Positions 27,716-39,525 of a stretch of DNA of 39,787 nt are shown piece after piece (position 1 is the first letter of the stretch; every line of letters begins with the position of its first letter). The stretch is from IMG/VR virus record IMGVR_UViG_3300012944_000017, positions 1-39,787 of that record; one strand, 5' to 3'. The notes beneath the pieces were generated by a model. It saw only the letters and a program-made list of their open reading frames with translations. It did no database searches and was not told the origin of the DNA. The translations under genes were made by a program, and so were the position numbers. The stretch is from a virus.

Positions 27716-28657
27716 TCAGAAAGTGGTGATGACATAGATTGCACCGGACCCGCCCTGGCCGCCAGCCCCGGAGGCTTGCGTGCTGATCGCACTGCCACCG
27801 CCACCGCCGCCCGCGCCGATGCCACCCGCGCCGCCGGCGAAGCCGACGCCCGCCGCGCTCGAGGCGCCGCCCGCACCGCCGGTCCCGCCCGTATAACCGC
27901 TCGCATTGGACCCTGCCGTGCCTGCCCCCGCACCGCCCGCCGGGCCAGTGATATTAAGCCCGTTGAGATTGCCGCCGTTACCGCCGTTGGTGGCGGCCGG
28001 CGCCGCCGTGAGCCCACCGCCAGCACCACCGCCTGAGCCCGCGTTGTAACCCAGGCCACCGTTCGCACCCGCCGCACCGTTCACACCGCCGCCGCCCGAA
28101 CCGCCTCCGGCGTTGGCGAAAATGCCGTTGGCACCGAATCCACCGATGGACCCGGCGCCCGCGCCGGCCGCTCCGCCGGCCGCGCCCGTGCCAATGCCCC
28201 CAGCACCCGCAAGGCCCGCCGCTCCGCCACCGCCCGAGTTGCTGGCGCTCTGGCCACCCGCGGCTCCGCCACCGACGGCCGCGTTCACCAGCCCGCCGAA
28301 AGTCGTTGCACCGCTCCCGCTGGCTCCAGGATTTCCCACTGCACCGGTGACCGTGATGCCACCGGCACCGCCGGTCCCCACGTTGGTCGCAGCCGTTGCA
28401 CCGAATGCAGAAGCCGGGAAGGTTTGATCGATGAGTGCGCCGGTCGCGCCGCCGGCACCGCCAGAGCTTGCGGTCCCAGAGACAATGGAGCCGCCCGATC
28501 CGCCACCGCCCCCTGCGCCAATGGCGATCACGCGCACGAGCTTGGCACCGCTCGGCTTCGTCCAGGTGCCCGCACCGGGTGTGGTGAACACCTGAACGTC
28601 GACGGGATTCCCGGCCGAGCCGCCCACCGGAGACACATTGCCGGTGATTTCACCCAC
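27716..28657 (-). CDS. Glycine-rich domain protein (313 aa), fibre/virion-associated
   Basis: The N-terminus VQVFTTPGAGTWTKPSGAKLVRVIAIGAGGGGGSG is the typical entry of phage glycine-rich tail-fibre-like domains. About 250 aa of G/A/S/T low complexity follow. Confidence 0.6.
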   Translation of the reverse strand: MGEITGNVSPVGGSAGNPVDVQVFTTPGAGTWTKPSGAKLVRVIAIGAGGGGGSGGSIVSGTASSGGAGGATGALIDQTFPASAFGATAATNVGTGGAGGITVTGAVGNPGASGSGATTFGGLVNAAVGGGAAGGQSASNSGGGGAAGLAGAGGIGTGAAGGAAGAGAGSIGGFGANGIFANAGGGSGGGGVNGAAGANGGLGYNAGSGGGAGGGLTAAPAATNGGNGGNLNGLNITGPAGGAGAGTAGSNASGYTGGTGGAGGASSAAGVGFAGGAGGIGAGGGGGGSAISTQASGAGGQGGSGAIYVITTF

Positions 28658-28662
28658 GTGAG

Positions 28663-28986
28663 TTAACTCACGATGCGCGCGAGCGCGGCGAAGATTCCCG
28701 CAGGGGCACCGCCCACAATGACCGCCTGCACCATGCCGGGCGGCAGGTACACGACGCCCATGCCCGCAGCGGTCAAGGTCGTGCCCACGCCCGCATCAAT
28801 CCAGGTGGCTCCATCGGGACCGAGCACCTGGAGCTTCACGGTCGCGCCACCGAAGGTGCCGACCACAGAGAATACGCAGGTGCCGCCAGGGCAATCGACC
28901 GGGCCGCGGCTCACCGTGGCGCCCGAAGTGTTGGGTGTGTCGGGCGGGCCCGTCCCGATCAGCAGCGCGCCCCAGCTCCCGGACAT
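28663..28986 (-). CDS. Hypothetical virion-module protein (107 aa), beta-rich
   Basis: Track ORF, tightly packed in the structural operon. Confidence 0.5.
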   Translation of the reverse strand: MSGSWGALLIGTGPPDTPNTSGATVSRGPVDCPGGTCVFSVVGTFGGATVKLQVLGPDGATWIDAGVGTTLTAAGMGVVYLPPGMVQAVIVGGAPAGIFAALARIVS

Positions 28987-28989
28987 GGC

Positions 28990-29226
28990 TCAGAAGTCCG
29001 AGAAGGTGGTGTTGTCGCGCTGCATCCAGTTGATGACGTTGTAGAGCGCGAGGATCACTTCTTTGCGACTGATCGGCCGAGGCGAGACCGTCGAGCTCGC
29101 GTCCGTCACGGTGACCGCCTGCTCAACCGTCACTTCGATCTTCTTGGTCACGACCGCAGCTCCAGCCGCCACCACGATGGACTCGATCGGGTCCTCGGGG
29201 TTGATCGAAATTCGGATGGTCGCCAT
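28990..29226 (-). CDS. Hypothetical virion-module protein (78 aa)
   Basis: Track ORF with a GAGG SD upstream of the ATG at 29226. Confidence 0.5.
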   Translation of the reverse strand: MATIRISINPEDPIESIVVAAGAAVVTKKIEVTVEQAVTVTDASSTVSPRPISRKEVILALYNVINWMQRDNTTFSDF

Positions 29227-29294
29227 GGCTTACCTCGCGGAAAGCGGGGCGGTGGGAGGTCCCGCCCCTTCGGGTGGTGTAACGGGGACTAACC

Positions 29295-29978
29295 TTATCG
29301 CACCCAGGTCCACTGCAAGGTGATGCCACCGACCGCGGTGGGCGCGGTGGTCGCGGTGAGGGCGAGCTCGAACTCGTAGAACGGGTCCTGGGCAAAGCCC
29401 ATGAGCTCCCAGATACGCAGGTTCGCGTTCGCCGCGGCGGTGGCCACCGCACCGATCTGCGGGGTGTAGATGGACTTCCACACCGTGTTCGCGGCCGCAG
29501 TGGAAGCGGCCTGTGCCAAGATCTGATCGTTGTTCGGGATCGCGATCGCCGAGGGCGGTGCGTTGATGGCCGCACCCGTGGTCCAATTCCCGCTCGGGGG
29601 CTGGCTGTTGGTGTTGCCGGTGGTGCAGTAGTACACCACGCCGGCGAACTGCACGACGTTGCCCGGCACATAGGCGGTCGTGGAGTTCCAGGTGGCCAGT
29701 GACAGTCCGAGGTTCAGGCCCTGCTGGTCGTTGGTGTACAGGCCGAGCTTCCACACGCCGGCCGTGGTCGCATCATTGAGGAGCTGAATGTCCTGGATGC
29801 GCACGCCCGATGGGAGATACCCGTACTTGTACACGGAGGCGATCGAGTCGGTCGCCACCGTGACCACCGTGCCCACCGAAACGGTGTCGTTCGCGCCCGC
29901 CTGGTAGCCAGAGGACAGAATGCGCGGCTGCGCATTGTAGTTGGTGATGAGCGTGCCTTGACGGGTGACGACGGCCAT
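29295..29978 (-). CDS. Capsid decoration / cement protein candidate (227 aa)
   Basis: It lies immediately downstream of the major capsid gene behind AAGGAGAAG. Its beta-rich composition and this gene order match the arrangement I recall for BPP-1 (MCP followed by a jellyroll cement protein). Assignment is by position only. Confidence 0.4.
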   Translation of the reverse strand: MAVVTRQGTLITNYNAQPRILSSGYQAGANDTVSVGTVVTVATDSIASVYKYGYLPSGVRIQDIQLLNDATTAGVWKLGLYTNDQQGLNLGLSLATWNSTTAYVPGNVVQFAGVVYYCTTGNTNSQPPSGNWTTGAAINAPPSAIAIPNNDQILAQAASTAAANTVWKSIYTPQIGAVATAAANANLRIWELMGFAQDPFYEFELALTATTAPTAVGGITLQWTWVR

Positions 29979-30048
29979 GAACTTCTCCTTGTGGCTCCGG
30001 GGCGGGGACCTGCCCCCTGCCCCTGCCGGTTATTGCTGAATGACTCGC

Positions 30049-30966
30049 TTACCGCGACCAGATTTGCGTGACGCGCTTTTCCTCGAGCCGCGTGGCCCCT
30101 GCGGTCATGAACACGTACGCCTGCCAGGGCTCGGACTGCAAATCGTTGCGCTGGCTGATGTTGGTGCTGATGGCGTTCCACACGCCCAGGTGCATCCCCT
30201 CGCGCTGCCACATGAACACCTTGGTCGAGGTGCCGGCCTGATCGTCCGTCCCGGTGGCCAGGCGCTCGGAGCGCACGAAGGTGATCCCGAGGAATCGCTT
30301 GACGCGCCCCTCCTCGAGCACCGGCTGGTCGTTGAAGTCACGGCTGATGACCTGCGCCTCGGCCATGAGATTGTCGAGCTGGCGCGCCCCGGCGACGCAC
30401 ACCAGGCCCGAATTCGGATCGCCTGGGTCCTCCTCATCGTCCGAGTACGCCTCGTTCTGCGTGAGGATGAGCTTGCCCTGGCGGAGCTTCGCGACCGTGA
30501 GGCCGGTAGGCGCGGTCGCGCCCTGATTGACACTCACGATTTCACCGGCCGGCAGCACGATGGCGTTGCCACCATTCACTCCGGTCTGCGCCGTGCCGCC
30601 CAGCGCCGTGATGATCAGATCGTCGTACTGGCGATTGGCCGCGTTGTGGGCGTTCTTGACGAATTTACCCTTCGGGTCAATCAGCAGGCGGAGCTTGTCG
30701 AAGTTGTCGAACAACTGCGGCAAATCGTAATCGGAGGGGTAGACCCAGCGCCGATCGGTCGCCGCGTCCACGCGCTGCATCGGGCCGTATCGCTGCGTGA
30801 CGGGCTGCATGGCCACCGCGCCCACCTGCTCAACGGGGCTCGCGGCCTGGCCCACGTACTTATCTTCGGTGACGAACTTTCGGAGCCGACTGGTCTTTTG
30901 CTGAACCAGCTCGTTCAGGGTCTTGGCGTACTGCTGAACGTAGAACGTGACAATGTTGGTAGACAC
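30049..30966 (-). CDS. Major capsid protein (HK97-fold, BPP-1/Phage_capsid_2-like, 305 aa)
   Basis: Assigned by size and by position after the scaffold. It has a strong SD (GGAGG) before the GTG at 30966 and is flanked by stem-loops. The sequence resembles podovirus MCPs (MSTNIVTFYVQQYAKTL...DKYVGQAASPVEQVG...). Confidence 0.7.
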   Translation of the reverse strand: MSTNIVTFYVQQYAKTLNELVQQKTSRLRKFVTEDKYVGQAASPVEQVGAVAMQPVTQRYGPMQRVDAATDRRWVYPSDYDLPQLFDNFDKLRLLIDPKGKFVKNAHNAANRQYDDLIITALGGTAQTGVNGGNAIVLPAGEIVSVNQGATAPTGLTVAKLRQGKLILTQNEAYSDDEEDPGDPNSGLVCVAGARQLDNLMAEAQVISRDFNDQPVLEEGRVKRFLGITFVRSERLATGTDDQAGTSTKVFMWQREGMHLGVWNAISTNISQRNDLQSEPWQAYVFMTAGATRLEEKRVTQIWSR

Positions 30967-31109
30967 GGCGGCGCCTCCGAAAAGTGTGGTGAGCTTTTCG
31001 AGGGCCGGGTCCCTTGCGGGGGGCGCTCTAAGTGGGGGAGCCCACTTTACGCTGGAGCTTTGCTCCCATCAGCGGGGGGAAGGTCCTTCCCGGTTCCGCG
31101 TTCGTGGGG

Positions 31110-31310
31110 TCAGACGCTAGGCGGGCTCGGTGGCACTGTCAAGGGGCTGCGTCGCGCGCGGCCGGCGAAGTACGCCTCGAGCACCCGAAGATCATTCGCC
31201 GCATCACTCACCGCGTGCCAGTCCCTCATGGTCACGCGCTGCATCAGGTAGCGCACCAGGACCCGCCGCTCGTGATCGAGCTCGGCGGTGTCCAGGAGCG
31301 ATTCACTCAT
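31110..31310 (-). CDS. Hypothetical small protein (66 aa)
   Basis: Track ORF. It overlaps the upstream gene end by 8 nt. Confidence 0.4.
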   Translation of the reverse strand: MSESLLDTAELDHERRVLVRYLMQRVTMRDWHAVSDAANDLRVLEAYFAGRARRSPLTVPPSPPSV

Positions 31311-31968
31311 TGAGCGGCGGCGGTGCGGTGTTGATGCGCTCCAGGTACGGACCTGCCGGATGGTTCACCAGGTGGAACACGCCGGCCTCCGCGGCCACGA
31401 TAATTAGGCCATTCCACTCGCGAAAGCCGAGCACTTTACCGTAGGGGGTCAGGTCGGCAACGAAGCGCGCGCCGGCGGTGTCGCCGGCCGCCGCCGCGTC
31501 GTGCGGGTCCGGGCGGTATCTTGGATCGGTGCCGAGGAACTTCCCGCAGGCGAGACACTGGTACTCATCGTGGAGCCCGCTATACCTGGTCCGCAGGTGC
31601 GGGCAGCCCGCTACTTTGGGCACACCGCCTGGCGCTGGCACGGCTCCCTCTGGCACCCTCATGGGGTCCAGCATCGGCAGCACCACATCGCACTCTGCGC
31701 AGTGCCACATCAGATCGTCCTGCCGGAAATACCGGCGCAGGTGCGCGCACTTCGCACACCCTCGCTGCGCCGCATTGGCTTCCGCGCGCGTGTCGAATGC
31801 TGCGCGCAGTTCGCGCGGCTTGTGGGGTGGCCCATAAGAAAGTTTCGCGAACGCCCCGCAGCCCATGCACTGAAAGGTCTCCATATCCGGGCCTTCGCTG
31901 CTGTCAATGGGCCCGTGCCCGAGGGACTTAACGACGGTGTGCCCGCAACTGTTGACGCCCTCGCTCAC
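31303..31968 (-). CDS. Double zinc-ribbon protein (four CxxC pairs) between scaffold and capsid genes
   Basis: CMGC...CAKC and CAEC...CLAC. The start is either the GTG at 31968, overlapping the scaffold stop (GTGA), or the ATG at 31884. The N-terminal extension in the track (to 32040) overlaps the scaffold gene and is rejected. Confidence 0.55.
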   Translation of the reverse strand: MSEGVNSCGHTVVKSLGHGPIDSSEGPDMETFQCMGCGAFAKLSYGPPHKPRELRAAFDTRAEANAAQRGCAKCAHLRRYFRQDDLMWHCAECDVVLPMLDPMRVPEGAVPAPGGVPKVAGCPHLRTRYSGLHDEYQCLACGKFLGTDPRYRPDPHDAAAAGDTAGARFVADLTPYGKVLGFREWNGLIIVAAEAGVFHLVNHPAGPYLERINTAPPPLNE

Positions 31969-32972
31969 TGCTGCTGCGCGGCGCCCGCGGCTACGATCTT
32001 GCCGAGCTCCAGCACTTCCTTCTCGTACTTGTTGCGCCACTCAAAATCGCTGATCTTGTTCGCGGACCGATCGGCGGTGATCTGGTTGATGCGCGCCTGC
32101 GCCTGGCTCGCCGTATTACCAAAGCCCGAGGTCCCATCGCCGTTGTTCCCATCGCCGGCGAAGCGTGACTCGGCATTCCCCGCGCCAAAGGCGTGGAGCA
32201 TCTTCATGTAGCCAGGGGTGCCGAGCACGCGCTCCACTTCGCGCATCTGAGGCTCGGTGGCTCCGGTGCTTTTCATGACGAACGCCTCGCCGCGGTTGGC
32301 GAGCTGCGCGTTTTCCTTGTAGGAAGTGCCCCAGGTGCGCTGGAGCTCGGCCAGTCCCGCCTCGCTCTCGGCCTTATCACGGGCCTGGGCCGCGGCCACC
32401 GCTTTGGCGATCGCCCCGTCATAGCCCTTGGCAATTTGGGACGCCATGCGAGCGGGCACGCCCGCCTCGAACAGCACCTTGGAAATCTCCCCCTTGAACT
32501 CCGGGAAGTTCGGGTCCTGGGGGATGTCGTACTTATCAGCGCTCGCCGGCACGCCGATCTTCGCGTTGAACGCCGCGCGCCCCTCCGGGTCGGCCTTGAC
32601 GAGCTCCCCCTTGTCGTTGTACTCCTCGGCGGGAAGCGCGACTACGCGGCCGGCGCGCTCCGCTCCGATCATCCTTTCGTACCCGTGGGCCGAGCGCGCG
32701 AGGGTCTTGATGTCCGGGAAGTTCTTGTTCCCGACCCACTCGCGAATCTCTTTGTCGGCCGGGTCGGACCAGGCTTGCCAGAAAGGCTCGTTGGCGGCCG
32801 CGCCATTCCCAGCTCCACCAGTGCCTCCACCAGTCCCCGCTCCAGCACCAGCGCCCGTACCAGTGCCCGCGCCAGCGCCCGCACCGCCTTGGCCGCCCGC
32901 GCCTCCGCCGGCCCCACCAGCGCCACCTTCGGCGCCGCCCGCATTACCCGCCGCCGTCGCTGCTGTTGGCAT
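31965..32972 (-). CDS. Capsid scaffolding protein (335 aa) with N-terminal Gly/Ala low-complexity tract
   Basis: It lies upstream of the MCP. The body is helical and charged (KADPEGRAAFNAKIGVPASADKYDIP...) as in T7/BPP-1-type scaffolds. The first 60 or so aa are GAG/GTG repeats. Confidence 0.6.
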   Translation of the reverse strand: MPTAATAAGNAGGAEGGAGGAGGGAGGQGGAGAGAGTGTGAGAGAGTGGGTGGAGNGAAANEPFWQAWSDPADKEIREWVGNKNFPDIKTLARSAHGYERMIGAERAGRVVALPAEEYNDKGELVKADPEGRAAFNAKIGVPASADKYDIPQDPNFPEFKGEISKVLFEAGVPARMASQIAKGYDGAIAKAVAAAQARDKAESEAGLAELQRTWGTSYKENAQLANRGEAFVMKSTGATEPQMREVERVLGTPGYMKMLHAFGAGNAESRFAGDGNNGDGTSGFGNTASQAQARINQITADRSANKISDFEWRNKYEKEVLELGKIVAAGAAQQQ

Positions 32973-33267
32973 CTTTCGGTTCCTTCCATTCGATGAGGTC
33001 GTTGATCGCCTGCATTACATCACAGCGCCCGTGTTTGCGCGCGGTGCGGTAGATGTCGGTCTGCCCGACGTTGTCGGTTTCATTGATGAGCTTGCGCGTG
33101 CCACAGAATCGGTCGAGCTCGTCCAGGACAATGGCCCCATGTGGAGTACGGGCCCCAGGGGGCCCGAAGATTGCCAGAAAAGCATCACGCACCGAACGGA
33201 TACGCGCGAGCTGTCGGACGCGCTCGAGGGTGTTCTCCTCCCCGGCGGTGAGCTCACTGTCAGCCAC
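32944..33267 (-). CDS. Bbp19-like protein (107 aa)
   Basis: GAIVLDELDRFCGTRKLINETDNVGQTDIYRTARKHGRCDVMQAINDLI resembles the Bbp19 family pattern (VL.dL..FC........d.......egrR.V...I), recalled from memory. Its position upstream of the scaffold also matches my recollection of BPP-1. Confidence 0.45.
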   Translation of the reverse strand: MADSELTAGEENTLERVRQLARIRSVRDAFLAIFGPPGARTPHGAIVLDELDRFCGTRKLINETDNVGQTDIYRTARKHGRCDVMQAINDLIEWKEPKDANSSDGGG

Positions 33268-33604
33268 CGAGCTCGCTCTCGCTCACCCGCGGGACGGCCG
33301 CACTGCCGGTGGTTTGGTTGCCAGGCGTCGCCGCCAAGGCCGCCATGAGCTGCTCGGTCCTGGCTCCTTGACCTTTCTGGTACGGCATCCACTCGCACCA
33401 GGAAGTGCCCTCGACCGGCTTCTCATCGTCTTGGAGGAGCGTCACCTTCTGCACGCCGTAGGGCGGCCCAAACATCGAGAAGGCGCAGAGGTTAACGTGG
33501 CGTGCGTCGTGCACGAACGTTACGATCGCCGCGAGCGGGGGAGCGTCCAGCGCGGCCCAGCTCTCGTGGTACCACACCACGCGCCCGGCAGTGGGTTCGA
33601 TCAT
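33260..33604 (-). CDS. Hypothetical protein (114 aa), possible SH3-like small beta-barrel
   Basis: GRVVWYHE......LAAIVTFVHDARHVNLCAFSMFG...VQKV is a pattern common in small phage proteins of unknown function. Confidence 0.5.
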   Translation of the reverse strand: MIEPTAGRVVWYHESWAALDAPPLAAIVTFVHDARHVNLCAFSMFGPPYGVQKVTLLQDDEKPVEGTSWCEWMPYQKGQGARTEQLMAALAATPGNQTTGSAAVPRVSESELGG

Positions 33605-33819
33605 GAGACCACCTGCCAGTCATCGGCCAGGAGGTCCGTCTGCGAAGCGACCCAGGGCACGAGCTCCCCGCCCACCGGGTACATGTAGAGGTAGGGCCGG
33701 CGCATCTTGCTGTTTTCATCCGGCGTCTGGAGCGCCACGTACATGCCGACGCCGTTCCAGCCCGAGCGCGAAATCTTGGCCCCGTGGCGGACCACCTCGA
33801 GTGCATCTGAAAAATCCAT
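33601..33819 (-). CDS. tad2: DUF2829 family protein, Tad2-like (Thoeris anti-defence 2 candidate, 72 aa)
   Basis: MDFSDALEVVRHGAKISRSGWNGVGMYVALQTPDENSKMRRPYLYMYPVGGELVPWVASQTDLLADDWQVV fits the DUF2829 consensus almost residue for residue (M.F.eAl.al..GkkvaR.gWng.gm.i.lq......m..pyiym.......vpW.asq.DlLAeDW.iv). The start is set at the ATG at 33819, behind GGAGGGGG. Confidence 0.8.
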   Translation of the reverse strand: MDFSDALEVVRHGAKISRSGWNGVGMYVALQTPDENSKMRRPYLYMYPVGGELVPWVASQTDLLADDWQVVS

Positions 33820-33826
33820 GGCATCC

Positions 33827-33851
33827 CCCTCCAGTTGTTGAACGCGGAGGG
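33827..33851 (-). promoter_or_regulatory. Hairpin pairing the Tad2-like gene's Shine-Dalgarno (GGAGGG) with an upstream CCCUCC
   Basis: On the plus strand, ccctcc (33827-33832) and ggaggg (33846-33851) are separated by 13 nt. In the minus-strand RNA this reads CCCUCC-13 nt-GGAGGGGGAUGCC-AUG. Confidence 0.35.
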
Positions 33852-33883
33852 TACAGCGCAATCACACCCGCTGGCAACTCCTG

Positions 33884-34234
33884 TTAGGCGCCCATGCTTG
33901 CCTTGAGGGTGGCGACGAGCTCGCCGATCGCCGTGCAGAGCTTATCCAGGCCCGCGATCACCTTCCGATCGGTCTCCATATCCGAGCGCAGCGCGGTGAG
34001 GAGCTGATCCATGACCTTGCGCTCGAACCCGTCCTGGAACGCGGCGTGCGCGCCCTTGACCATGCCGGCGATCGCCTCGGGCCCCATCTGCTCGGCCATG
34101 TCGTGAAACTGCCGGTCGTGCTCGTCGAGGCGGTGGTGCGCCTCCTCATCCACCGGCGCAGCACCCGCTCGCGAGGCCGGTGCTGCGCCGGGCTTCCCGG
34201 CTCCGTTCGCGCTCACCGAGGTATCCTTGGGCAC
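33884..34234 (-). CDS. Hypothetical helical protein (116 aa)
   Basis: Track ORF. Its start abuts the stop of the FN3-like gene. Confidence 0.5.
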   Translation of the reverse strand: MPKDTSVSANGAGKPGAAPASRAGAAPVDEEAHHRLDEHDRQFHDMAEQMGPEAIAGMVKGAHAAFQDGFERKVMDQLLTALRSDMETDRKVIAGLDKLCTAIGELVATLKASMGA

Positions 34235-34588
34235 CTACGGCCCCACGTTCGGGAATGGAAAGGGCCGGCGCATCGGGGTCACCAGGTTGGTGCTGGTGGG
34301 GCTCGCCGTGAACACCCGCTCGGCGCTCACCGCCCGCTCCACACCGCCCTGCACGACCGCCACGCGGACGGTGTACTGGCCTGGCGGGGTGATCGCGCTC
34401 CCGTTGTAGCTCGAGCCGTGGAGCCCCGTGATGATCGCCTTTCGGACGGCCACATTCACATTGAGCACATCGTTCACGTACACGTTGTAGCTGTCGGGGG
34501 CGGCGCCGGGGAAAGGCGGCCACTCCACGAGTGCCGTGCCGTTGAGGTTGTCGTAAATGTCGATGCGCCCGCAGCTCGAGTTCGCCAC
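34235..34588 (-). CDS. Fibronectin-III/Ig-like domain protein (117 aa)
   Basis: ALVEWPPFPGAAPDSYNVYVNDVL.....ITGL......YTVRVAVVQGGVE shows FN3-like strand spacing (W...Y.vyv.......tgL....Y.v.V.Av). Confidence 0.5.
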   Translation of the reverse strand: MANSSCGRIDIYDNLNGTALVEWPPFPGAAPDSYNVYVNDVLNVNVAVRKAIITGLHGSSYNGSAITPPGQYTVRVAVVQGGVERAVSAERVFTASPTSTNLVTPMRRPFPFPNVGP

Positions 34589-34591
34589 AGC

Positions 34592-36268
34592 CTACGCTCC
34601 TTGCGGAATGGTGGGAGCGCCAGGCCCCGTCCCCTGCCCGCCGGCAATCTGCGCGGCCTTGGCAAGACTCAGCGCGCTCGTGGACACGCTCGGGGCCGCG
34701 GCGAGCGCCGCGGTCTCCTGCTGCTGCTTCGCGGCCTGCTCCATGAGCGCCTGAATCTGCTCCTCGGTGCGCAGGAGCTTGGGCGGCGTGCCGCGGATCA
34801 TCGACATGGCGCGCGCCGCGTCGTGGAAATCCATGATGTATTTCACGCTCGGGTCGATCTGCGCCATGACCCCGAGGTCCTGCACGGTGTTCATGATCGC
34901 AGTCCCCTCCTCCGCGCGCTGCGCTCGGGCCAGGGGGCTCGTGTATTCAATCCGCATCCCGCGCTTGGAGCGCATCAGCGCCTCCGGCGGGGGCGGCAAC
35001 ACCCGCGCTTCACTTAAGAGGTCAATCTCTCTGTGGACTTGCGGCCCCAAAAACTCGGTCTGCTGCCGACCCATTTCCGGGGCGAGGAGCTCGCCCTTCT
35101 CCTGGGCGTGGATGAGGGCTTGGGTCGCGGTGATGGGCTCGCCGTTCCGGGTCGCGTCCACCAAAATCTGAAACAGCGTGTTGAGGAACGTGTCCTTGAT
35201 CGCACCGCGGGTGTCGGTGAGCATGTCCTTTTCGATCTGCCAGTTCCCCTTGCTCTCGAACGGCATGGCGAGTGGCTTCCCATCGCTCGTCATCATGCCG
35301 TAGTTATTGGCGCCGGGGCGCTGGTTGAAGTTGGTCAGCACCCCATCCTCGGCCAGGAGGATGGGCGGGTCGACCGCCTTCTGGCCCATGCGGAGCGCGG
35401 TCTTGACCATTTCATTGGCGGTGCGGATGTCGGGGAGGCACGTGGTGGCTGGCCCTCGGCCGTAGCTCTCGCGCGGTGCCACGCGGTAGCGCCCGATCGC
35501 GCAGGGGAAAGTGCGGTAGCCACCGCACTCGATCACCGATTGGTCGCCCAGGAATACGTACCAGCTCTCAAAGGCCATGCCCTTGGGGCCATAGCCGCCG
35601 GCCACCTGGTGGTAGTTGGGACGGATGCAGTGCAGGTACTCGGCTTCCGTGTACGGCGCGCTCTCGAAGGTGCGCTGGATGCCCAAGGGGATATTGGCCT
35701 TGCCCTTCCAGTGCTGGATCGCCTGCTTGGCGGTGTAGCGGAACTTGCGGTACACCGTGTCGACCATACCCTGGTGGTTCACCGCCCAGCACAATTCGGA
35801 GAGCGGCCAGGCGCGATACCGGAGGTTCCCTTTGCGGAGGTCATCGTCGATAAAGAGCACGTTGTTGCCAAACGCGCCGAGTGAGAGGTAGCACACATCG
35901 GTCTGCGCCGCGTAGCCCGCCTCGGGGTGGTAGCGGGCGGCAAAGAGAATCTTGTTGACCGCATCCAGGTACTTTTGCACCGTCGGGTCGTCCTCGAGCT
36001 CCTCATCGTCGGGCTTGAGCTTGTGCCACACCTGGCTCGAGGGGGTGAGCATCGCGGTCATGGCCGCGGCGAAGCGTTGGTTGGCAATCACGCCGGTGGA
36101 ATCGAAGATGCGGGTGTTGCGATTGACCCCTTCGGCGAACTCGCCAATAAAGTTGTCGTTCGCGGGCATCACGAACTGCGCGGCGGTGTTCCAGAGGTTG
36201 CGGAAGTTGCTTTGCTTCTGCCACAGCGCCTGGTAGTCGCTGATCAGGCTCTTGGCATCATCGCTCAC
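34592..36268 (-). CDS. Portal (head-to-tail connector) protein, podovirus type (558 aa)
   Basis: Assigned by size and by position between the terminase and scaffold regions. The N-terminus DYQALWQKQSNFRNLWNTAAQFVMP and its general similarity to T7 gp8-class connectors support the call. Confidence 0.75.
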   Translation of the reverse strand: MSDDAKSLISDYQALWQKQSNFRNLWNTAAQFVMPANDNFIGEFAEGVNRNTRIFDSTGVIANQRFAAAMTAMLTPSSQVWHKLKPDDEELEDDPTVQKYLDAVNKILFAARYHPEAGYAAQTDVCYLSLGAFGNNVLFIDDDLRKGNLRYRAWPLSELCWAVNHQGMVDTVYRKFRYTAKQAIQHWKGKANIPLGIQRTFESAPYTEAEYLHCIRPNYHQVAGGYGPKGMAFESWYVFLGDQSVIECGGYRTFPCAIGRYRVAPRESYGRGPATTCLPDIRTANEMVKTALRMGQKAVDPPILLAEDGVLTNFNQRPGANNYGMMTSDGKPLAMPFESKGNWQIEKDMLTDTRGAIKDTFLNTLFQILVDATRNGEPITATQALIHAQEKGELLAPEMGRQQTEFLGPQVHREIDLLSEARVLPPPPEALMRSKRGMRIEYTSPLARAQRAEEGTAIMNTVQDLGVMAQIDPSVKYIMDFHDAARAMSMIRGTPPKLLRTEEQIQALMEQAAKQQQETAALAAAPSVSTSALSLAKAAQIAGGQGTGPGAPTIPQGA

Positions 36269-36480
36269 AGCGTCCTCGGATGCGCCAGCAGGTCGCGCAA
36301 CGCCACATACTCGGGCCGGTACATCACGCCAGGCTGCTCCGGGTTCTGGTAGCGACAGCGCGCGCGATCGCGCTGCACGAACAAAATCTTATACACCCGC
36401 CGCGGCTCGGAGCGCGTCTGCACCAGATCGCCGGCACGGAAGGGCTCGTGCAGATCGAGGCGCTCGGTGAGCGCGATCAC
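36265..36480 (-). CDS. Hypothetical small protein (71 aa)
   Basis: Track ORF with 4-nt overlaps on both sides. Confidence 0.45.
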   Translation of the reverse strand: MIALTERLDLHEPFRAGDLVQTRSEPRRVYKILFVQRDRARCRYQNPEQPGVMYRPEYVALRDLLAHPRTL

Positions 36481-36755
36481 TGCAACACGTCCTGGGCGCG
36501 CCTAATCTCCAGTCCAAAGATGGTGAAGTGCTCCAGCACCAGCCAGGGGTCGTGGCGGCGCTTGGCTTCCTCGATGTCGATTTCCAGTTGCTCGTGGTTG
36601 CCAAAGTGCCCCAGCTCGCCGGCTTTCAACGGGTCCAGCAAATCGAGGGCCTCCGCGTCGGTGAGGGTGAGGGCGAACTCGTTGAGCGGTGCGCCCTGGC
36701 TCATCACAAAGGTATGCAGGCTCCGCGCCTTCTCCACCGCCGCGCTCATGCTCAT
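36477..36755 (-). CDS. Hypothetical acidic protein (92 aa)
   Basis: Track ORF with 4-nt overlaps on both sides. Confidence 0.45.
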   Translation of the reverse strand: MSMSAAVEKARSLHTFVMSQGAPLNEFALTLTDAEALDLLDPLKAGELGHFGNHEQLEIDIEEAKRRHDPWLVLEHFTIFGLEIRRAQDVLQ

Positions 36756-37000
36756 ATCCCGAGCTGGGTTTTACCGGTCGCCGGCGGCTGGCCGCTCGCC
36801 CCGCCGTAGATGTTGGAGAGGAACCCGCGCCGTGCGCGCAGCGCATCGGACTGCTGCTGGGCGGCGTTCGCCGCATCGTTCACGTTGGGCACGCCAGGGA
36901 GCGGCGGTGGACCGGGGCGGCCGGCGTTCATCACCGAGTGGGCCGCGCTCGCGCCAGGATCGAGGCGGCGCATCCAGCGTGGCGGATCAAGAAAGCTCAT
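36752..37000 (-). CDS. Hypothetical protein (82 aa), Pro/Gly-rich, ends ...GKTQLGI
   Basis: Track ORF 36752-37066 trimmed to the ATG at 37000, behind GAGGTGA. Confidence 0.45.
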   Translation of the reverse strand: MSFLDPPRWMRRLDPGASAAHSVMNAGRPGPPPLPGVPNVNDAANAAQQQSDALRARRGFLSNIYGGASGQPPATGKTQLGI

Positions 37001-37006
37001 CGCTGG

Positions 37007-37033
37007 CTCACCTCGGTGGGGGCGGGAGGTGAG
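37007..37033 (-). promoter_or_regulatory. 8-bp stem hairpin (ctcacctc / gaggtgag) that includes the SD of the 36752-37000 gene
   Basis: Inverted repeat read directly, with an 11-nt loop. Confidence 0.35.
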
Positions 37034-37062
37034 GACGATCCTGCGGGGCGCCCCCGGCACAG

Positions 37063-37326
37063 TCAAGGCTTCGCCGGTTCCGCTCGCTTCGCCTCGAGGC
37101 GATACCCGCGATACAGGCAGTGCGCCGGCACTGGGTGGGGCCCGTGCGGGATCGGATAGCCCAGCGCCGTGAGCATCTGCTTCGGTGACATCTGAAGCGG
37201 GATCGGCGTCGTGGACCAGGGCTGGAAGTGCCGGCGCCTATCGATGAGTATGTCGATGCGCCGGCGGTGGAAATACGGGTTCTCCGGCTCGCTCGCCTCC
37301 TGTTCCCACTGTCGCTCCTCGCTCAC
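37063..37326 (-). CDS. Hypothetical protein (87 aa)
   Basis: Track ORF with an ATGA-type overlap with the upstream wHTH gene. Confidence 0.45.
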   Translation of the reverse strand: MSEERQWEQEASEPENPYFHRRRIDILIDRRRHFQPWSTTPIPLQMSPKQMLTALGYPIPHGPHPVPAHCLYRGYRLEAKRAEPAKP

Positions 37327-37529
37327 GCGCGCACCGTGTAGAGCCAGGGCTGGCGCCCGCGGGTGTCCAATCGCATGAGCTTTCGATCGAGCACGCCCAC
37401 ATCGAGGGCTAGGTGCCGCAAGATCGCCGAGCAGTGCTTGCGTGGGAGACCCGTGACCGCGGCCACCTCAACCGATGTGCTCGCCCCCTCGGCCACCACC
37501 TCGAGCACCGCCAGGCGCTGCCCGGTCAT
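37323..37529 (-). CDS. Winged-helix (MarR/ArsR-like) DNA-binding protein (68 aa)
   Basis: RLAVLEVVAEGASTSVEVAAVTGLPRKHCSAILRHLALDVGVLDRK...WLYTV follows the typical wHTH layout. Confidence 0.55.
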   Translation of the reverse strand: MTGQRLAVLEVVAEGASTSVEVAAVTGLPRKHCSAILRHLALDVGVLDRKLMRLDTRGRQPWLYTVRA

Positions 37530-37642
37530 GTGAGCACCAGCTCGAAGCGCGGCGGTGGATCATCGACGATCCAGAAGCGGAGCCAGGAGCGCCGCCGGCG
37601 CGCAAAGCGCCCGCGCTCGTCGCGGATGTTATGCCTCGCCAT
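37526..37642 (-). CDS. 38-aa basic peptide (MARHNIRDERGRFARRRRSWLRFWIVDDPPPRFELVLT)
   Basis: My own translation; below the track cutoff. Its stop overlaps the wHTH start (ATGA) and its start overlaps the upstream gene by 14 nt. Confidence 0.3.
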   Translation of the reverse strand: MARHNIRDERGRFARRRRSWLRFWIVDDPPPRFELVLT

Positions 37643-37913
37643 GGACCCAATCCGTCACGCGACGCACGATGCGCCGCCAGAGCGCCGGCTTGTGCCGGTA
37701 CATCGGATGCGCGTGGTTCATGCCGCCACAGGCCACACACAGCTCGCGGAAGTTTTCGGTGTAGACGTGGGCGGCAAACAGGCGCAGGCACTTGCTGCAC
37801 CGCGCGTGCGTAAAATAGCGGGTGTTGGCTACCCTCCTGGTCCCCTCGATCAACTGCGGTCTCTCCCAGCCGTCAAGCCGTTCTGAAGTGCTACTGCCTC
37901 CAGGCTTTCTCAT
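37629..37913 (-). CDS. Zinc-ribbon protein (94 aa)
   Basis: Track ORF 37629-38006 trimmed to the ATG at 37913. The four-Cys site is CSKC...(19)...CVAC. No obvious SD. Confidence 0.45.
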   Translation of the reverse strand: MRKPGGSSTSERLDGWERPQLIEGTRRVANTRYFTHARCSKCLRLFAAHVYTENFRELCVACGGMNHAHPMYRHKPALWRRIVRRVTDWVHGEA

Positions 37914-38052
37914 GGCGCGATTACCAGAACACTCTTTGGGGCCGTGCCTTCCCGCGCGTTGCGGCCATCCGAATGCGTCGACTCCGTCGGGCCCACTACC
38001 GTGCACGGTGGGCGGACCTCCAAGGGCCGAGGCTACGCGGTCGGAAAATTCC

Positions 38053-39525
38053 TCACGTCAAAGAGTACGCCGGTCGGATGCGCTTTGCACCTAGTTGACC
38101 TCGGAGCACCACCCGGCCCTCCCCGCACCCGAGCATCCGGTACTGATCGGCCTCGCACACATGGGAGACCGAGTTCTTGTCCGGCTTGTCGTGGTATCGC
38201 TCATCGCCCACGATCTGCACGCGGCGGAAGCGGTACATGCCGGCGAGGCCCCGGCGGAGCGTGGGGCAGCCGTGCTCGTGGACTTGAAAGCCCACCTCCC
38301 CGTCAATGATGCGCATCATGGCCTGGGCGTGCGCCTCGCGGCGCACCGTGAACTCGTTGGTGTGCGCGGGCTTCGCATCCACCCCGTTGGCCTTGAGGAT
38401 TTTAAAACACGTGTCCTCGATATTGTGCTCGCTGTCGGCATCGCCGGCGGGGTCCCCGGTGATGCTCGAGATTTCAAAGTTCGGCACCCGTTCCTCGATG
38501 AACCCCTTGAGTACCACGGCGAACTGCTTGGCACCCATGTGCTCGGTCACCACCTCCCAGCGCACCCTGTGAATACCGGTGAAGGTGCGCTGGCCGATGG
38601 TGGCGGCCGGCGTGTTGCCAAAATCGATCCCGATCGAGAGGGGCAGGCGCGGGTTAAATTCAAAGAGCTTGACGTGCAGGCTCTCGCGGAACTCGGGGTA
38701 CACCGGGCGCCCATCCTGCACGAAGCCATACTCGCCGCGGATGTAGACTTTCTTCCACTCCTCGCTCTTTCCCGCACTCGCCTTGGCGTAGTAGTCACTC
38801 GGCAGGTTGACTCGGTTCTCCGCATCCGGTGAGTTGGCATCGGGCTGGGCGTGGAACTCGAACAAGGGCTGGTTGCGCTTGAGGAGCCCGGCGGCGCGCA
38901 TTTCCTTCTCCGCATCGATCACCGACTGCACGAGGTCGGCATTGCGCTGGCTCGAGGTGTCGCGCTCGGCGAGCACGTACCACCAGTGATCGACCTCCGG
39001 CGGGTTGGTGTCCATGATGATCTGCGGGTTCACACACCCGCCATCCCGCTTCGGGGGAAAGCGGCCCACGCGACCGGTGAGCCCATCGATCAGGCTTTTG
39101 CCCACTTCCCGAGCCTCGTTCACCCACGCGGCGGTGAGCTCCATGCCTAAGACCTTGCGCACGTCCTTCGGGCGATCGAGGGATACAAAGAGCACCTCCA
39201 TGTCGATGTTGTCATCGATGATGTGGTGCGTGGGTGGGCCGCTCGCGCGCCAGTGCCCGACCGATTCTGGAATCCACTGGTGCCAGGTCTTGATGGTCGT
39301 GGTCGTGAGCTCTGGATACGTGTTGCGGATCACCGCAATGCGCGAGTGCTTGCGCCCATCGGCCTGCACCACTTGCGCGTTGGCGATCTTGATGAGCTTC
39401 ATGACCGCCGCGGTGCTCTTGCCCGATCCGATCGGCCCGCGGATGCCGTCGATGAACGCCTCGGAATCTAGGAACGCATCGGCCACGGGCCCAGGGCTGA
39501 TGTAGTGGTACTCAGCGACCGTCAT
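38053..39525 (-). CDS. terL: Terminase large subunit (490 aa)
   Basis: Walker A is GPIGSGKST. The signature IRNTYPELTTTTIKTW is present. The Walker B-like motif is LTAAWVNEA. The C-terminal nuclease region includes ITGDPAGD. The start is set at the ATG at 39525, which overlaps the upstream stop by 1 nt (TAATG); the track ORF extends to 39615. Confidence 0.85.
   Translation of the reverse strand: MTVAEYHYISPGPVADAFLDSEAFIDGIRGPIGSGKSTAAVMKLIKIANAQVVQADGRKHSRIAVIRNTYPELTTTTIKTWHQWIPESVGHWRASGPPTHHIIDDNIDMEVLFVSLDRPKDVRKVLGMELTAAWVNEAREVGKSLIDGLTGRVGRFPPKRDGGCVNPQIIMDTNPPEVDHWWYVLAERDTSSQRNADLVQSVIDAEKEMRAAGLLKRNQPLFEFHAQPDANSPDAENRVNLPSDYYAKASAGKSEEWKKVYIRGEYGFVQDGRPVYPEFRESLHVKLFEFNPRLPLSIGIDFGNTPAATIGQRTFTGIHRVRWEVVTEHMGAKQFAVVLKGFIEERVPNFEISSITGDPAGDADSEHNIEDTCFKILKANGVDAKPAHTNEFTVRREAHAQAMMRIIDGEVGFQVHEHGCPTLRRGLAGMYRFRRVQIVGDERYHDKPDKNSVSHVCEADQYRMLGCGEGRVVLRGQLGAKRIRPAYSLT

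What the first reader, a model, noticed from the sequence alone, without database searches (positions are those of the whole stretch)
33601..33851. DUF2829 / Tad2-like candidate anti-Thoeris sponge embedded in the head-morphogenesis module, with its own SD-sequestering hairpin
The 72-aa product matches the DUF2829 consensus closely (GWNG.GM...PY.YM......VPW.ASQ.D.LA.DW). Tad2 proteins of this family were shown to sequester the gcADPR signal made by Thoeris ThsB, blocking ThsA activation (Yirmiya et al. 2024).

The gene sits between the portal and scaffold genes, so it would be expressed late. It is one of the few genes in this operon with a real upstream intergenic gap of 64 nt. In that gap, CCCUCC can pair with its GGAGGG Shine-Dalgarno. 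This looks like a moron-type insertion with separate translational control.
Basis: partly seen in the sequence, partly recalled or inferred. Interest (0 to 1): 0.7.

Follow-up and report, generated by a model that had tools for sequence, protein, structure and literature searches.

The report
Short Tad2-like immune-signal sponge gene
A soil phage carries, inside its head-assembly operon, a 72-residue member of the known Tad2 family, whose proteins soak up bacterial alarm molecules. The gene is an ordinary new member, but it sits in a gene-swapping hot spot beside an uncharacterised gene that may be a further anti-immunity protein.

Summary
Window 33601-33819 (minus strand) encodes a 72-aa protein that matches Pfam PF11195 (Tad2-like) end to end (88 bits, cut-off 25). 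It matches every solved Tad2 by sequence. Its model (pLDDT 95) superposes on them at TM 0.84-0.90. The residues that grip gcADPR in SPO1 Tad2 and HgmTad2 (W, N, W, S, T, D) are all present. The insertion that binds cyclic dinucleotides in HgmTad2 is missing.

None of 34 distinct related phages (portal 50-74% identical) has the gene. At the same junction, one relative carries Acb4 plus Sequestin and another lineage carries Acb4. The site is therefore a hot spot for sponge genes, and "moron-type insertion" is supported.

The hairpin that covers the ribosome-binding site is real in silico (-11.7 kcal/mol; 0 of 500 shuffles match it). But 4 of 31 ribosome-binding sites in this window are equally covered. 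It is not a trait of 33 other Tad2 genes, and no homologous leader exists. A regulatory role is unproven.

Ligand and anti-Thoeris activity are inferred, not shown.

Side lead: the overlapping downstream gene (33260-33604) belongs to an unnamed family that neighbours Acb4 or Tad2 in many phages. It is fused to Acb4 in five contigs.

The parts
33601..33819 (-). Coding sequence of the 72-aa short-insert Tad2-like protein (stop codon included)
   Evidence: PF11195 at 88 bits, E 6e-25. PDB sequence matches to SptTad2, ModTad2, SPO1 Tad2 and HgmTad2. Model pLDDT 95. The top 24 Foldseek PDB matches are all Tad2, TM 0.84-0.90.
33824..33832 (-). Ribosome-binding site GGAGGGGGA, 4 nt upstream of the ATG
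   Evidence: Read directly from the sequence.
33827..33851 (-). Predicted 25-nt hairpin. The 5' arm CCCUCC(G) pairs with the 3' arm (U)GGAGGG, which is the core of the ribosome-binding site.
   Evidence: dG -11.7 kcal/mol and pair probability 0.88-0.99 in 6 of 7 windows. 0 of 500 shuffles cover the site as fully. No conservation evidence.
33820..33883 (-). 64-nt intergenic leader, the left junction of the accessory cassette
   Evidence: Gene coordinates. No promoter-like or terminator-like site, no Rfam match, no similar DNA in any fetched locus.
33260..33604 (-). Partner gene 'g114' (114 aa). Its start overlaps the Tad2 stop (ATGA). It belongs to an uncharacterised family (phrog_2293).
   Evidence: PHROG match. 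No Pfam, PADLOC or NCBIfam match. Family alignment. Neighbours or is fused to Acb4 or Tad2 elsewhere.
33884..34234 (-). Backbone gene g116, the left boundary of the insertion site
   Evidence: Homologues at 33-50% identity in relatives, directly upstream of the Bbp19-like gene where the site is empty (L017, L078).
32944..33267 (-). Backbone Bbp19-like gene (107 aa), the right boundary of the insertion site
   Evidence: Weak PF25181 match and phrog_4437. Conserved in relatives.
34592..36268 (-). Portal (T7/BPP-1 type)
   Evidence: PF12236 at 339 bits. 37-40% identical to the portals of phages BcepC6B, RpY1 and BUCT708.
31965..32972 (-). Putative scaffold (335 aa), assigned by position only
   Evidence: phrog_3742, function unknown. 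It occupies the place of BPP-1 bbp18 and BcepC6B gp07.
30049..30966 (-). Major capsid protein
   Evidence: PF19821 at 209 bits.

Best explanation
**What it is.** The 72-aa product is a minimal, short-insert member of the Tad2 family of phage sponge proteins.

**How it most likely works (by homology).** It assembles into a homo-oligomer, which is a tetramer in all solved Tad2 proteins. Pockets between protomers sequester a nucleotide alarm signal derived from NAD by a host TIR-domain enzyme. The most probable signal is 3'cADPR (1''-3' gcADPR) of type I Thoeris. With the signal bound, the host effector is never switched on and the infection proceeds.

**What it probably does not do.** It lacks the long insertion that gives HgmTad2 and SptTad2 a second pocket for cyclic dinucleotides. 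It is therefore predicted not to bind CBASS dinucleotides.

**Where it sits.** The gene and the overlapping downstream gene g114 form a two-gene accessory cassette. The cassette was acquired at a hot spot between two conserved small head-module genes of a BPP-1/BcepC6B-like soil podovirus. It is read as part of the late structural operon, upstream of the capsid gene. A phage capsid protein has been reported to trigger type I Thoeris.

**Shown here:** family, fold, pocket residues, absence from relatives, and other sponge genes at the same site.

**Inferred:** oligomer state, ligand, anti-defence effect, and timing of expression.
For: - **Family and fold.** PF11195 full-length match. Sequence matches to all solved Tad2 proteins, E 1e-13 to 6e-9. 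Model pLDDT 95.2. Foldseek top 24 PDB matches are all Tad2, TM 0.84-0.90, and the next match has E 0.1.
- **Pocket residues, SPO1 Tad2.** The contacts W25, N26, W73, S76, T78 and D79 (10.1101/2023.05.01.538930) align with W21, N22, W56, S59, T61 and D62 of the query.
- **Pocket residues, HgmTad2.** The same positions are the ones whose mutation abolishes gcADPR binding there (W21A/N22A; S90A/T92A/D93A; PMC10680739).
- **Conservation.** These positions are 75-100% conserved in the 150 closest cluster representatives. 151 of 159 aligned domains, including the query and two solved Tad2 reference sequences, share the same 12-residue short insert.
- **Size of the family.** 5,455 representative clusters match at E <= 0.001.
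- **Motif.** The query has SQTD, as in the gcADPR binders SPO1 Tad2 and HgmTad2. ModTad2, which binds His-ADPR, has SVSD.
- **Published tests.** 4 of 5 diverse Tad2 homologues inhibited type I Thoeris.
- **Absence from relatives.** No Tad2 match in six-frame searches of 87 fetched loci, which comprise 84 loci from relatives (34 distinct lineages with sequence downstream of the portal) plus BPP-1, BcepC6B and one other phage.
- **Other sponges at the same junction.** Between g116 and the Bbp19-like gene, L006 (portal 74%, capsid 84% identical) carries a g114 homologue, Acb4 (PF13876, 108 bits) and Sequestin (PF21825, 49 bits). L013/L053 carries Acb4. PF13876 and PF21825 are experimentally shown sponge families (10.1101/2025.07.12.664507).
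- **Trigger.** Capsid as the trigger of type I Thoeris: PMC12578639.
Against: - No binding or infection data exist for this protein or any close relative. The closest representatives are about 65% identical.
- Ligand choice within Tad2 is plastic. Homologues block type I, II and IV Thoeris, CBASS or Pycsar, and 19 of 84 tested sponge homologues blocked nothing.
- Four secondary pocket positions differ from SPO1 Tad2: I63 to M, T65 to P, D67 to G, H71 to V.
- The helix alpha-2, which forms the V-shaped dimer in SPO1 Tad2, has no counterpart in the model. The oligomer state is therefore uncertain.
- The host is unknown, so the presence of Thoeris in it cannot be checked.
- Sponges act stoichiometrically and are argued to need early expression. 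A late-operon position with a covered ribosome-binding site fits that argument poorly.
Confidence: 0.65

Rival explanations
1. It is a functional Tad2-type sponge, but its ligand is not the type I Thoeris signal. It could be His-ADPR (type II), N7-cADPR (type IV), a cyclic mononucleotide (Pycsar), or a signal of a defence system not yet described.
For: - The family shows wide functional diversity, and many members block more than one system (PMC12393519).
- ModTad2 has the same fold and keeps the W, N and W positions, yet it binds His-ADPR and not gcADPR.
- Four secondary pocket positions differ from SPO1 Tad2.
Against: - The SQTD motif and the WN pair match the gcADPR binders, not ModTad2, which has SVSD.
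- PMC10680739 predicts that only about 1% of Tad2 proteins lack gcADPR binding.
- The pocket used for cUMP in MoTad2 and for dinucleotides in HgmTad2 lies at the protomer A-C interface. In HgmTad2 that pocket is built from the long insertion, which is missing here.
Confidence: 0.2
2. The hairpin over the ribosome-binding site is a real translational control element. It could be a throttle or a timing device, and it gives the inserted gene expression control separate from the operon.
For: - The hairpin is stable (-11.7 kcal/mol) and buries GGAGGG, with unpaired probability 0.003.
- 0 of 500 shuffles of the leader reach that value.
- It lies in one of only a few real gaps in the operon.
- In relative L013 the Acb4 cassette also starts with its ribosome-binding site inside an 8-bp stem, unpaired probability 0.012.
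Against: - 4 of 31 ribosome-binding sites in this window are covered as fully in silico, including one in a tightly packed backbone gene. Roughly one case in eight is therefore expected.
- Accessibility of the wider zone around the site (0.23) is no lower than for the capsid gene (0.17).
- The 91-nt leader is not unusually stable (z +0.56).
- Among 33 other Tad2 genes the median unpaired probability is 0.48 and the mean shuffle rank is 0.49.
- The L013 case is matched by 7% of shuffles, and the L006 case depends on the folding window.
- There is no homologous leader for a covariation test and no Rfam match.
- Throttling a stoichiometric sponge makes little functional sense.
Confidence: 0.2
3. 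The protein has no counter-defence role. It is a head-assembly or virion accessory protein, or a decaying passenger gene.
For: - It lies inside the head-morphogenesis operon.
- Many DUF2829 genes in isolated phages sit next to terminase or structural genes.
Against: - It is absent from every one of 34 distinct relatives that share the portal and capsid genes, so it is not needed for assembly.
- The reading frame is intact, its codon bias matches the operon (GC3 0.84), and all core pocket residues are kept.
- The same site holds proven sponge families in relatives.
Confidence: 0.07
4. It is an anti-CRISPR of the AcrIIA7 type, an inhibitor of type II CRISPR-Cas.
For: AcrIIA7 (the same protein as HgmTad2) is a DUF2829 protein. 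It matches the query at E 5.8e-11.
Against: - HgmTad2 and the other Tad2 homologues tested did not inhibit SpyCas9 in vitro, and HgmTad2 showed no anti-CRISPR activity in vivo (PMC10680739).
- Binding to Cas9 was never demonstrated.
Confidence: 0.03

Closest known systems
SPO1 Tad2 (Gp34.65; PDB 8SME/8SMF/8SMG), the founding anti-Thoeris sponge that binds 1''-3' and 1''-2' gcADPR
   Same: - Same Pfam family and fold: N-terminal helix, antiparallel sheet and C-terminal helix, TM 0.85-0.90.
- The contacts W25, N26, W73, S76, T78 and D79 are all conserved.
- The C-terminal motif W-V-x-S-Q-T-D-x-L-A-x-D-W is nearly identical.
   Different: - 72 aa against 89 aa. The insertion of SPO1 Tad2 (its residues 36-59), which holds helix alpha-2, is 13 residues shorter here and has no helix in the model.
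- I63, T65, D67 and H71 are replaced by M, P, G and V.
- The host is probably a high-GC soil Gram-negative bacterium, not Bacillus.
- The gene lies in a late structural operon.
HgmTad2 (AcrIIA7; PDB 8KBI-8KBM) and SptTad2 (8WJD), dual sponges for gcADPR and cyclic dinucleotides
   Same: The gcADPR site residues are conserved (HgmTad2 W21/N22 and S90/T92/D93). SptTad2 is the best sequence match in the PDB.
   Different: These proteins bind cGG and 3'3'-cGAMP with a 35-41-residue insertion. The query has about 12 residues there, so a dinucleotide pocket is not expected.
ModTad2 (PDB 8V3E/9EIB), a sponge for His-ADPR of type II Thoeris and for cUMP/cCMP of Pycsar
   Same: Same fold (TM 0.84-0.90) and the same W, N and W positions.
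   Different: The pocket motif is SVSD rather than SQTD. ModTad2 has extra strands after beta-2 that create a second pocket, and the query lacks them.
Anti-signalling hot spot of N4-like (Migulavirinae) phages (bioRxiv 10.64898/2026.06.04.730250)
   Same: It is a fixed genomic junction that holds different mixes of Tad2, Acb4, Sequestin and unknown genes in related phages. Here the junction between g116 and the Bbp19-like gene holds Tad2 plus g114, or g114 plus Acb4 plus Sequestin, or Acb4, or nothing.
   Different: The phage lineage differs (BPP-1/BcepC6B-like podoviruses from soil metagenomes). The position also differs: inside the late head operon between portal and capsid, not between replication genes and the virion RNA polymerase.

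Membership tests
Tad2 / DUF2829 (Pfam PF11195) | Profile match above the curated gathering score over the whole domain | tested here: met
   88 bits against a cut-off of 25, E 6.2e-25, residues 1-71 on profile positions 1-73 of 73.
Tad2 / DUF2829 (Pfam PF11195) | Tad2 fold: helix alpha-1, antiparallel beta-sheet, C-terminal helix alpha-3 | tested here: met
   Model pLDDT 95.2 with H3-11, four to five strands and H60-64. The top 24 Foldseek PDB matches are all Tad2, TM 0.84-0.90, and the next match has E 0.1.
Tad2 / DUF2829 (Pfam PF11195) | Core gcADPR-contact residues (SPO1 W25, N26, W73, S76, T78, D79; HgmTad2 W21, N22, S90, T92, D93) | tested here: met
   Query W21, N22, W56, S59, T61 and D62 align with them. 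They are 75-100% conserved in the 150 nearest representatives.
Tad2 / DUF2829 (Pfam PF11195) | Secondary contacts on the adenine side and water-coordinating residues of SPO1 Tad2 (I63, T65, D67, H71) | tested here: not met
   They are replaced by M46, P48, G50 and V54 (alignment). In the short-insert subfamily these positions are mostly M/I, T, D/Q and V.
Tad2 / DUF2829 (Pfam PF11195) | Homotetramer made of two V-shaped dimers, with pockets between non-dimeric protomers | not testable with these tools
   Only monomer prediction is available. Helix alpha-2, which makes the V-dimer in SPO1 Tad2, is absent from the model.
Tad2 / DUF2829 (Pfam PF11195) | Binds and sequesters an immune signal, and rescues a phage from Thoeris | not testable with these tools
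   This needs biochemistry or an infection assay.
Dual-pocket Tad2 (HgmTad2/SptTad2 type) | [quoted passage not shown] | tested here: not met
   The insert is about 12 residues (QTPDENSKMRRP).
Moron (accessory gene inserted into a late phage operon) | Present in one phage and absent at the same place in close relatives | tested here: met
   No Tad2 in any of 34 distinct relatives. The site is empty in L017, L052, L066, L068 and L078.
Moron (accessory gene inserted into a late phage operon) | Own promoter and terminator flanking the gene | tested here: not met
   No sigma-70-like promoter anywhere in 30000-39787, and no terminator-like site in the gap or after the gene. The stop codon overlaps the next start codon.
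Moron (accessory gene inserted into a late phage operon) | Base composition that differs from the surrounding genes | tested here: not met
   GC 0.635 and GC3 0.84, against 0.62-0.69 and 0.73-0.91 for the neighbouring genes.
Translational control by a hairpin over the ribosome-binding site | A stable stem that includes the ribosome-binding site, beyond what chance gives | tested here: inconclusive
   dG -11.7 kcal/mol and 0 of 500 shuffles match it. But 4 of 31 sites in the window are covered as fully, and the leader has z = +0.56.
Translational control by a hairpin over the ribosome-binding site | Conservation or covariation of the stem in related leaders | tested here: not met
   No similar leader in any fetched locus. 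The sites of 33 other Tad2 genes are not covered (median unpaired probability 0.48). No Rfam family matches.
Phage immune-signal sponges in general (candidate status of the neighbouring gene g114) | Small phage-borne protein that recurs next to known sponges and is fused to them | tested here: met
   307 loci in IMG/VR. Acb4 lies within 3 kb in 22 of 80 loci and Tad2 in 8 of 80. Five single ORFs carry g114 followed by Acb4.
Phage immune-signal sponges in general (candidate status of the neighbouring gene g114) | Homo-oligomer with ligand pockets at the interfaces, and ligand binding | not testable with these tools
   The monomer model is a five-stranded barrel plus a helix, pLDDT 85. It has no PDB relative.

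The most novel reading that the evidence does not exclude
The Tad2 gene is one half of a travelling two-gene cassette. Its partner, g114 (33260-33604), would be the founding example of an unnamed family of phage proteins that counter nucleotide-signal immunity, either as a new sponge or as another kind of blocker.

The g114 domain has the conserved motifs MIEPTxGRxVW, LLQDD and EWMPYQKGQAAK, and its model is a small beta-barrel plus a helix. It has no Pfam family and no solved relative. It sits beside Acb4, Acb3, Tad2 or Sequestin in unrelated phage backbones, and it is fused to Acb4 in at least five contigs.

In addition, the junction between g116 and the Bbp19-like gene in the late head operon of BPP-1-like soil podoviruses would be an anti-signalling island. 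It would be expressed together with the capsid protein that triggers the signal.
Probability: 0.4. Interest if true: 0.7.

Novelty: new member of a known kind. Interest (0 to 1): 0.38.

Why it matters
- **The gene itself.** It adds one more member to a family with thousands of members. That shows only that high-GC soil podoviruses also carry Tad2-type sponges, here in the smallest form of the domain.
- **The short form.** It could be a handy minimal scaffold for studying the gcADPR pocket without the variable insertion.
- **The context.** A fixed junction in a late head operon holds interchangeable sponge genes (Tad2, Acb4, Sequestin). This extends the idea of anti-signalling islands to a new phage group and to late expression next to the capsid trigger.
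- **The neighbouring gene.** g114 family is the main lead. It has the same kind of evidence that led to the discovery of Sequestin: recurring adjacency and fusion to known sponges. Searches based on Pfam would miss it, because it has no Pfam family.

Tried and rejected
- **Word-indexed homologue search with the 72-aa protein.** It failed twice on time. The exhaustive representative search replaced it.
- **Close relatives of the window.** Megablast of 7 kb against phage genomes found nothing. Single-sequence portal scans of IMG/VR and GTDB genomes found nothing. An alignment of portal homologues was needed.
- **L001.** This contig is 100% identical to the window, so it is not independent evidence.
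- **Repeats flanking the cassette.** Only short, chance-level matches.
- **Composition or codon signal of recent acquisition.** None.
- **Other libraries.** PADLOC and NCBIfam gave no matches for the Tad2 gene or its neighbours.
- **Host.** Not identifiable. The cluster look-up gave no organism names and the window has no tRNA genes.
- **Large ORFs in relatives.** Four ORFs of 909-1262 aa in the variable region of relatives have no Pfam match.
- **Neighbour picking.** Choosing the longest ORF on each side of the g114 loci mis-called genes in GC-rich DNA. I dropped it in favour of six-frame HMM searches.
- **First survey of ribosome-binding sites.** The first attempt used a profile with offset coordinates and analysed only one locus. 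It was redone correctly.
- **One apparent fusion rejected.** In L232 the g114 and Acb4 parts are in different reading frames, by my check of the coordinates. Consistently, its Acb4 ORF has no g114 domain. They are adjacent genes, not a fusion.
- **Cassette-head hairpin in L006.** It depends on the folding window and is no better than shuffles.
Full report
**1. What is at the coordinates**

- The finding's span (33601-33851) covers a minus-strand gene and part of its leader.
- The gene runs from the ATG at 33819 to a TGA at 33603-33601.
- The stop overlaps the ATG of the next gene (ATGA).
- The upstream gene ends with TAA at 33884-33886, which leaves a 64-nt gap.
- Between portal and capsid the other gaps are 3, 0-18, -4, -8, -29, -4, -8 and 143 nt. 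The 64-nt gap is indeed unusual for this operon.
- A second contig in the public data (L001) is 100% identical to window 27794-36553. It adds no independent evidence.

**2. Family membership**

- The protein matches Pfam PF11195 (Tad2-like, formerly DUF2829) from end to end, at 88 bits against a cut-off of 25. It also matches two PHROG families of unknown function.
- It matches the sequences of all solved Tad2 proteins: SptTad2, ModTad2, SPO1 Tad2 and HgmTad2/AcrIIA7, at E 1.5e-13 to 5.8e-9.
- An AlphaFold2 model built on 63 sequences has mean pLDDT 95.2.
- Against the PDB, its 24 best Foldseek matches are all Tad2 structures, with query-normalised TM 0.84-0.90. The 25th match drops to E 0.1.
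- An exhaustive HMMER search of 1.84 billion cluster representatives found 5,455 relatives at E <= 0.001.
- 151 of 159 aligned domains in the best-150 set share the same 12-residue short insert. The set also holds the query and two solved Tad2 sequences used as references. The 72-aa form is therefore a common subfamily, not a truncation.

**3. The ligand pocket**

- The SPO1 Tad2-gcADPR structure names these contacts: W25, N26, W73 and D79 directly, T78 to the adenine, and S76 through water (10.1101/2023.05.01.538930).
- In HgmTad2 the mutants W21A/N22A and S90A/T92A/D93A were designed to disrupt the gcADPR site (PMC10680739).
- In the HMMER alignment these positions correspond to W21, N22, W56, S59, T61 and D62 of the query. 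All six are conserved.
- Among the 150 nearest representatives, W21 is 100% conserved, N22 94%, W56 99%, S59 96%, T61 75% (serine in a further 15%) and D62 99%.
- Four secondary positions differ from SPO1 Tad2: I63 to M, T65 to P, D67 to G and H71 to V.
- The motif SQTD matches the gcADPR binders. ModTad2, which binds His-ADPR, has SVSD.
- HgmTad2 and SptTad2 bind cyclic dinucleotides with a 35-41-residue insertion. Only about 12 residues stand there in the query. The model has no helix alpha-2, the element that forms the V-shaped dimer of SPO1 Tad2.
- A second, dinucleotide pocket is therefore unlikely. The oligomer state cannot be taken for granted.

**4. What the family is known to do**

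- Four of five diverse homologues blocked type I Thoeris.
- Later work showed that Tad2 homologues can block type I, II and IV Thoeris, CBASS and Pycsar, often more than one. It also showed that 19 of 84 sponge homologues blocked none of seven systems (PMC12393519).
- HgmTad2 does not inhibit Cas9, which weakens the anti-CRISPR reading.
- "Sponge for an immune nucleotide signal" is therefore well supported by homology. "Anti-Thoeris through gcADPR" is the most likely reading but is unproven.

**5. The phage and the insertion**

- The window is a BPP-1/BcepC6B-like podovirus. It has a T7-type portal (PF12236), a PF19821 capsid protein and a Bbp19-like gene. Its portal is 37-40% identical to those of Burkholderia, Ralstonia and Stenotrophomonas phages.
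- Portal homologues 50-74% identical occur on many soil-metagenome contigs. I fetched 84 loci around them, of which 34 are distinct and have sequence downstream of the portal.
- The conserved order is portal, g117, sometimes g116, the Bbp19-like gene, the putative scaffold and the capsid gene.
- None of these loci, nor BPP-1 or BcepC6B, contains a Tad2 domain in any of six frames.
- In L017 and L078 the Bbp19-like gene follows g116 directly. In L052, L066 and L068 it follows g117 directly.
- In the window, 616 nt lie between g116 and the Bbp19-like gene. They comprise the 64-nt leader, the Tad2 gene and the overlapping 114-aa gene g114.
- At exactly this junction the closest long relative, L006 (portal 74%, capsid 84% identical), carries three genes. 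These are a g114 homologue, a PF13876 protein (108 bits) and a PF21825 protein (49 bits).
- L013/L053/L054 carries a PF13876 protein at the same junction.
- PF13876 is Acb4 and PF21825 is Sequestin. Both are experimentally demonstrated sponges (10.1101/2025.07.12.664507; PMC11722364).
- The junction is thus a hot spot where related phages hold different sponge genes. This is independent contextual support for a counter-defence role, and it supports the insertion reading.
- The gene has no promoter, terminator or compositional signature of its own. It is better described as part of a cassette read with the late operon.
- A similar hot spot has been described in N4-like phages.
- A phage capsid protein has been reported as the trigger of type I Thoeris (PMC12578639). 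Placing sponge genes just upstream of the capsid gene is therefore plausible. It does conflict with the published argument that sponges should accumulate early.

**6. The hairpin**

*For it:*
- The stem CCCUCC(G)/(U)GGAGGG, with an inner three-pair extension, is predicted at -11.7 kcal/mol. Its pair probability is 0.88-0.99 in six of seven windows and 0.40 in the other.
- Shuffling the 51 nt upstream never covered the ribosome-binding site as fully (0 of 500). 3% of shuffles reached an unpaired probability of 0.05 or less.

*Against a special role:*
- The 91-nt leader as a whole is not unusually stable (z +0.56).
- In a survey of 31 genes of this window with a recognisable ribosome-binding site, four have a core that is less than 2% unpaired.
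- The wider zone around the site is no less accessible than that of the capsid gene (0.23 against 0.17).
- Rfam has no match, and no fetched locus has a similar leader.
- Among 33 of the closest Tad2 genes in IMG/VR, the median unpaired probability is 0.48 and the mean rank among shuffles is 0.49. Covering the site is therefore not a family trait.
- The cassette in L013 also starts with its ribosome-binding site in an 8-bp stem, but 7% of shuffles do as well. The L006 case depends on the folding window.

I conclude that the hairpin is real as a prediction. Its regulatory meaning is unsupported, and I give it a probability of about 0.2.

**7. The neighbouring gene (side lead)**

- g114 (33260-33604) matches phrog_2293, of unknown function. 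It has no Pfam, PADLOC or NCBIfam match.
- Its family has very conserved motifs: MIEPTxGRxVW, VNL, LLQDD and EWMPYQKGQAAK.
- Its model (pLDDT 85) is a five-stranded barrel followed by a helix. It has no significant PDB match (best E 0.037). In BFVD it matches only unnamed or uncharacterised viral proteins.
- Homologues sit next to Acb4 in a lambdoid nin region (L090) and two genes from Acb3 (L091). They also sit between scaffold and capsid in another BPP-1-like phage (L089).
- IMG/VR holds at least 307 loci.
- In the best 80 of these, six-frame HMM searches find Acb4 within 3 kb in 22, Tad2 in 8 and Sequestin in 1. In L236 the Tad2 gene abuts g114 exactly as in the window.
- Five contigs (L192, L205, L211, L226, L250) have the g114 domain and a Pfam-confirmed Acb4 domain in one uninterrupted reading frame.
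- Fusion to known sponges is the argument that led to Sequestin. That search used Pfam families only, so it would have missed g114.
- A caution: in Pseudomonas phage PA8 the domain heads a 268-aa protein directly after the portal. In Xanthomonas phage Sopo it lies between terminase and portal. A link to head assembly is therefore not excluded.

**8. Verdict**

The gene is a true, minimal Tad2-family member, acquired at a sponge hot spot, and most likely a sponge for a TIR-derived signal.
- The specific ligand, the anti-Thoeris effect and any control by the hairpin remain untested.
- As a Tad2 gene it is a new member of a known kind and of modest interest. The context, and above all the g114 family, are what merit follow-up.

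Noticed in passing
window 33260-33604 (minus strand); L006 7191-7505; L090 4001-4318; L091 4001-4297; L226 2971-3732; L205 2923-3756; L192 342-1046; L211 2087-2947; L250 2884-4098: The 114-aa gene that overlaps the Tad2 stop belongs to an unnamed family (phrog_2293) with no Pfam family and no solved relative. The family recurs next to Acb4, Acb3, Tad2 and Sequestin in unrelated phages and is fused in frame to Acb4 in five IMG/VR contigs. It is a candidate new counter-defence domain.
   Followed up: yes
L006 7191-8135; L013 6638-6985 (same as L053, L054); empty sites in L017, L052, L066, L068, L078: The junction between g116 and the Bbp19-like gene in the head operon of this phage group is a hot spot. 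It holds Tad2 plus g114 (window), g114 plus Acb4 plus Sequestin (L006), Acb4 (L013), or nothing.
   Followed up: yes
L025 4198-7131; L033 8074-11031; L055 5383-9171; L063 9764-12493; also L039, L051, L020: Several relatives carry insertions of 3-6 kb between the portal and the Bbp19-like gene. These insertions encode very large ORFs (about 500-1260 aa). The four that were scanned (909-1262 aa) have no Pfam match. Other ORFs in the variable region match the Gp80 fibre protein or Ig-like domains.
   Followed up: partly
L253 2495-3301 (Pseudomonas phage PA8 gp15); L254 1892-2179 (Xanthomonas phage Sopo): Isolated, culturable phages carry the g114 domain. In PA8 it forms the N-terminus of a 268-aa protein directly after a P22-type portal. 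In Sopo it is a 95-aa gene between terminase and portal. Both are usable for experiments, and both hint at a possible link to head assembly.
   Followed up: partly
window 39625-39787: A tandem array of about 3.9 copies of a 39-nt unit (TCGGCGTGGAGCGCCTTCATCTTCGCCTTGAACGCCGGG) runs to the end of the window, just upstream of the terminase gene on the other strand. Each unit contains a short GC-rich inverted repeat.
   Followed up: no
window 31303-31968 (minus strand): A 221-aa ORF between the putative scaffold and the capsid gene is rich in paired cysteines (CxxC-like motifs, suggesting zinc ribbons). It has no Pfam match and no detectable homologue in any of the related loci.
   Followed up: no
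window 31965-32972 (minus strand), N-terminal ~60 residues: The putative scaffold protein starts with a long low-complexity run rich in Gly, Ala and Thr (GGAGGAGGGAGGQGGAGAGAGTGTGAGAGAGTGGGTGG...).
   Followed up: no
L236 2319-3270: One IMG/VR contig carries three candidate sponge genes in a row, Acb4 (2319-2633), Tad2 (2666-3001) and g114 (3001-3270). The Tad2 and g114 genes abut as they do in the window.
   Followed up: partly
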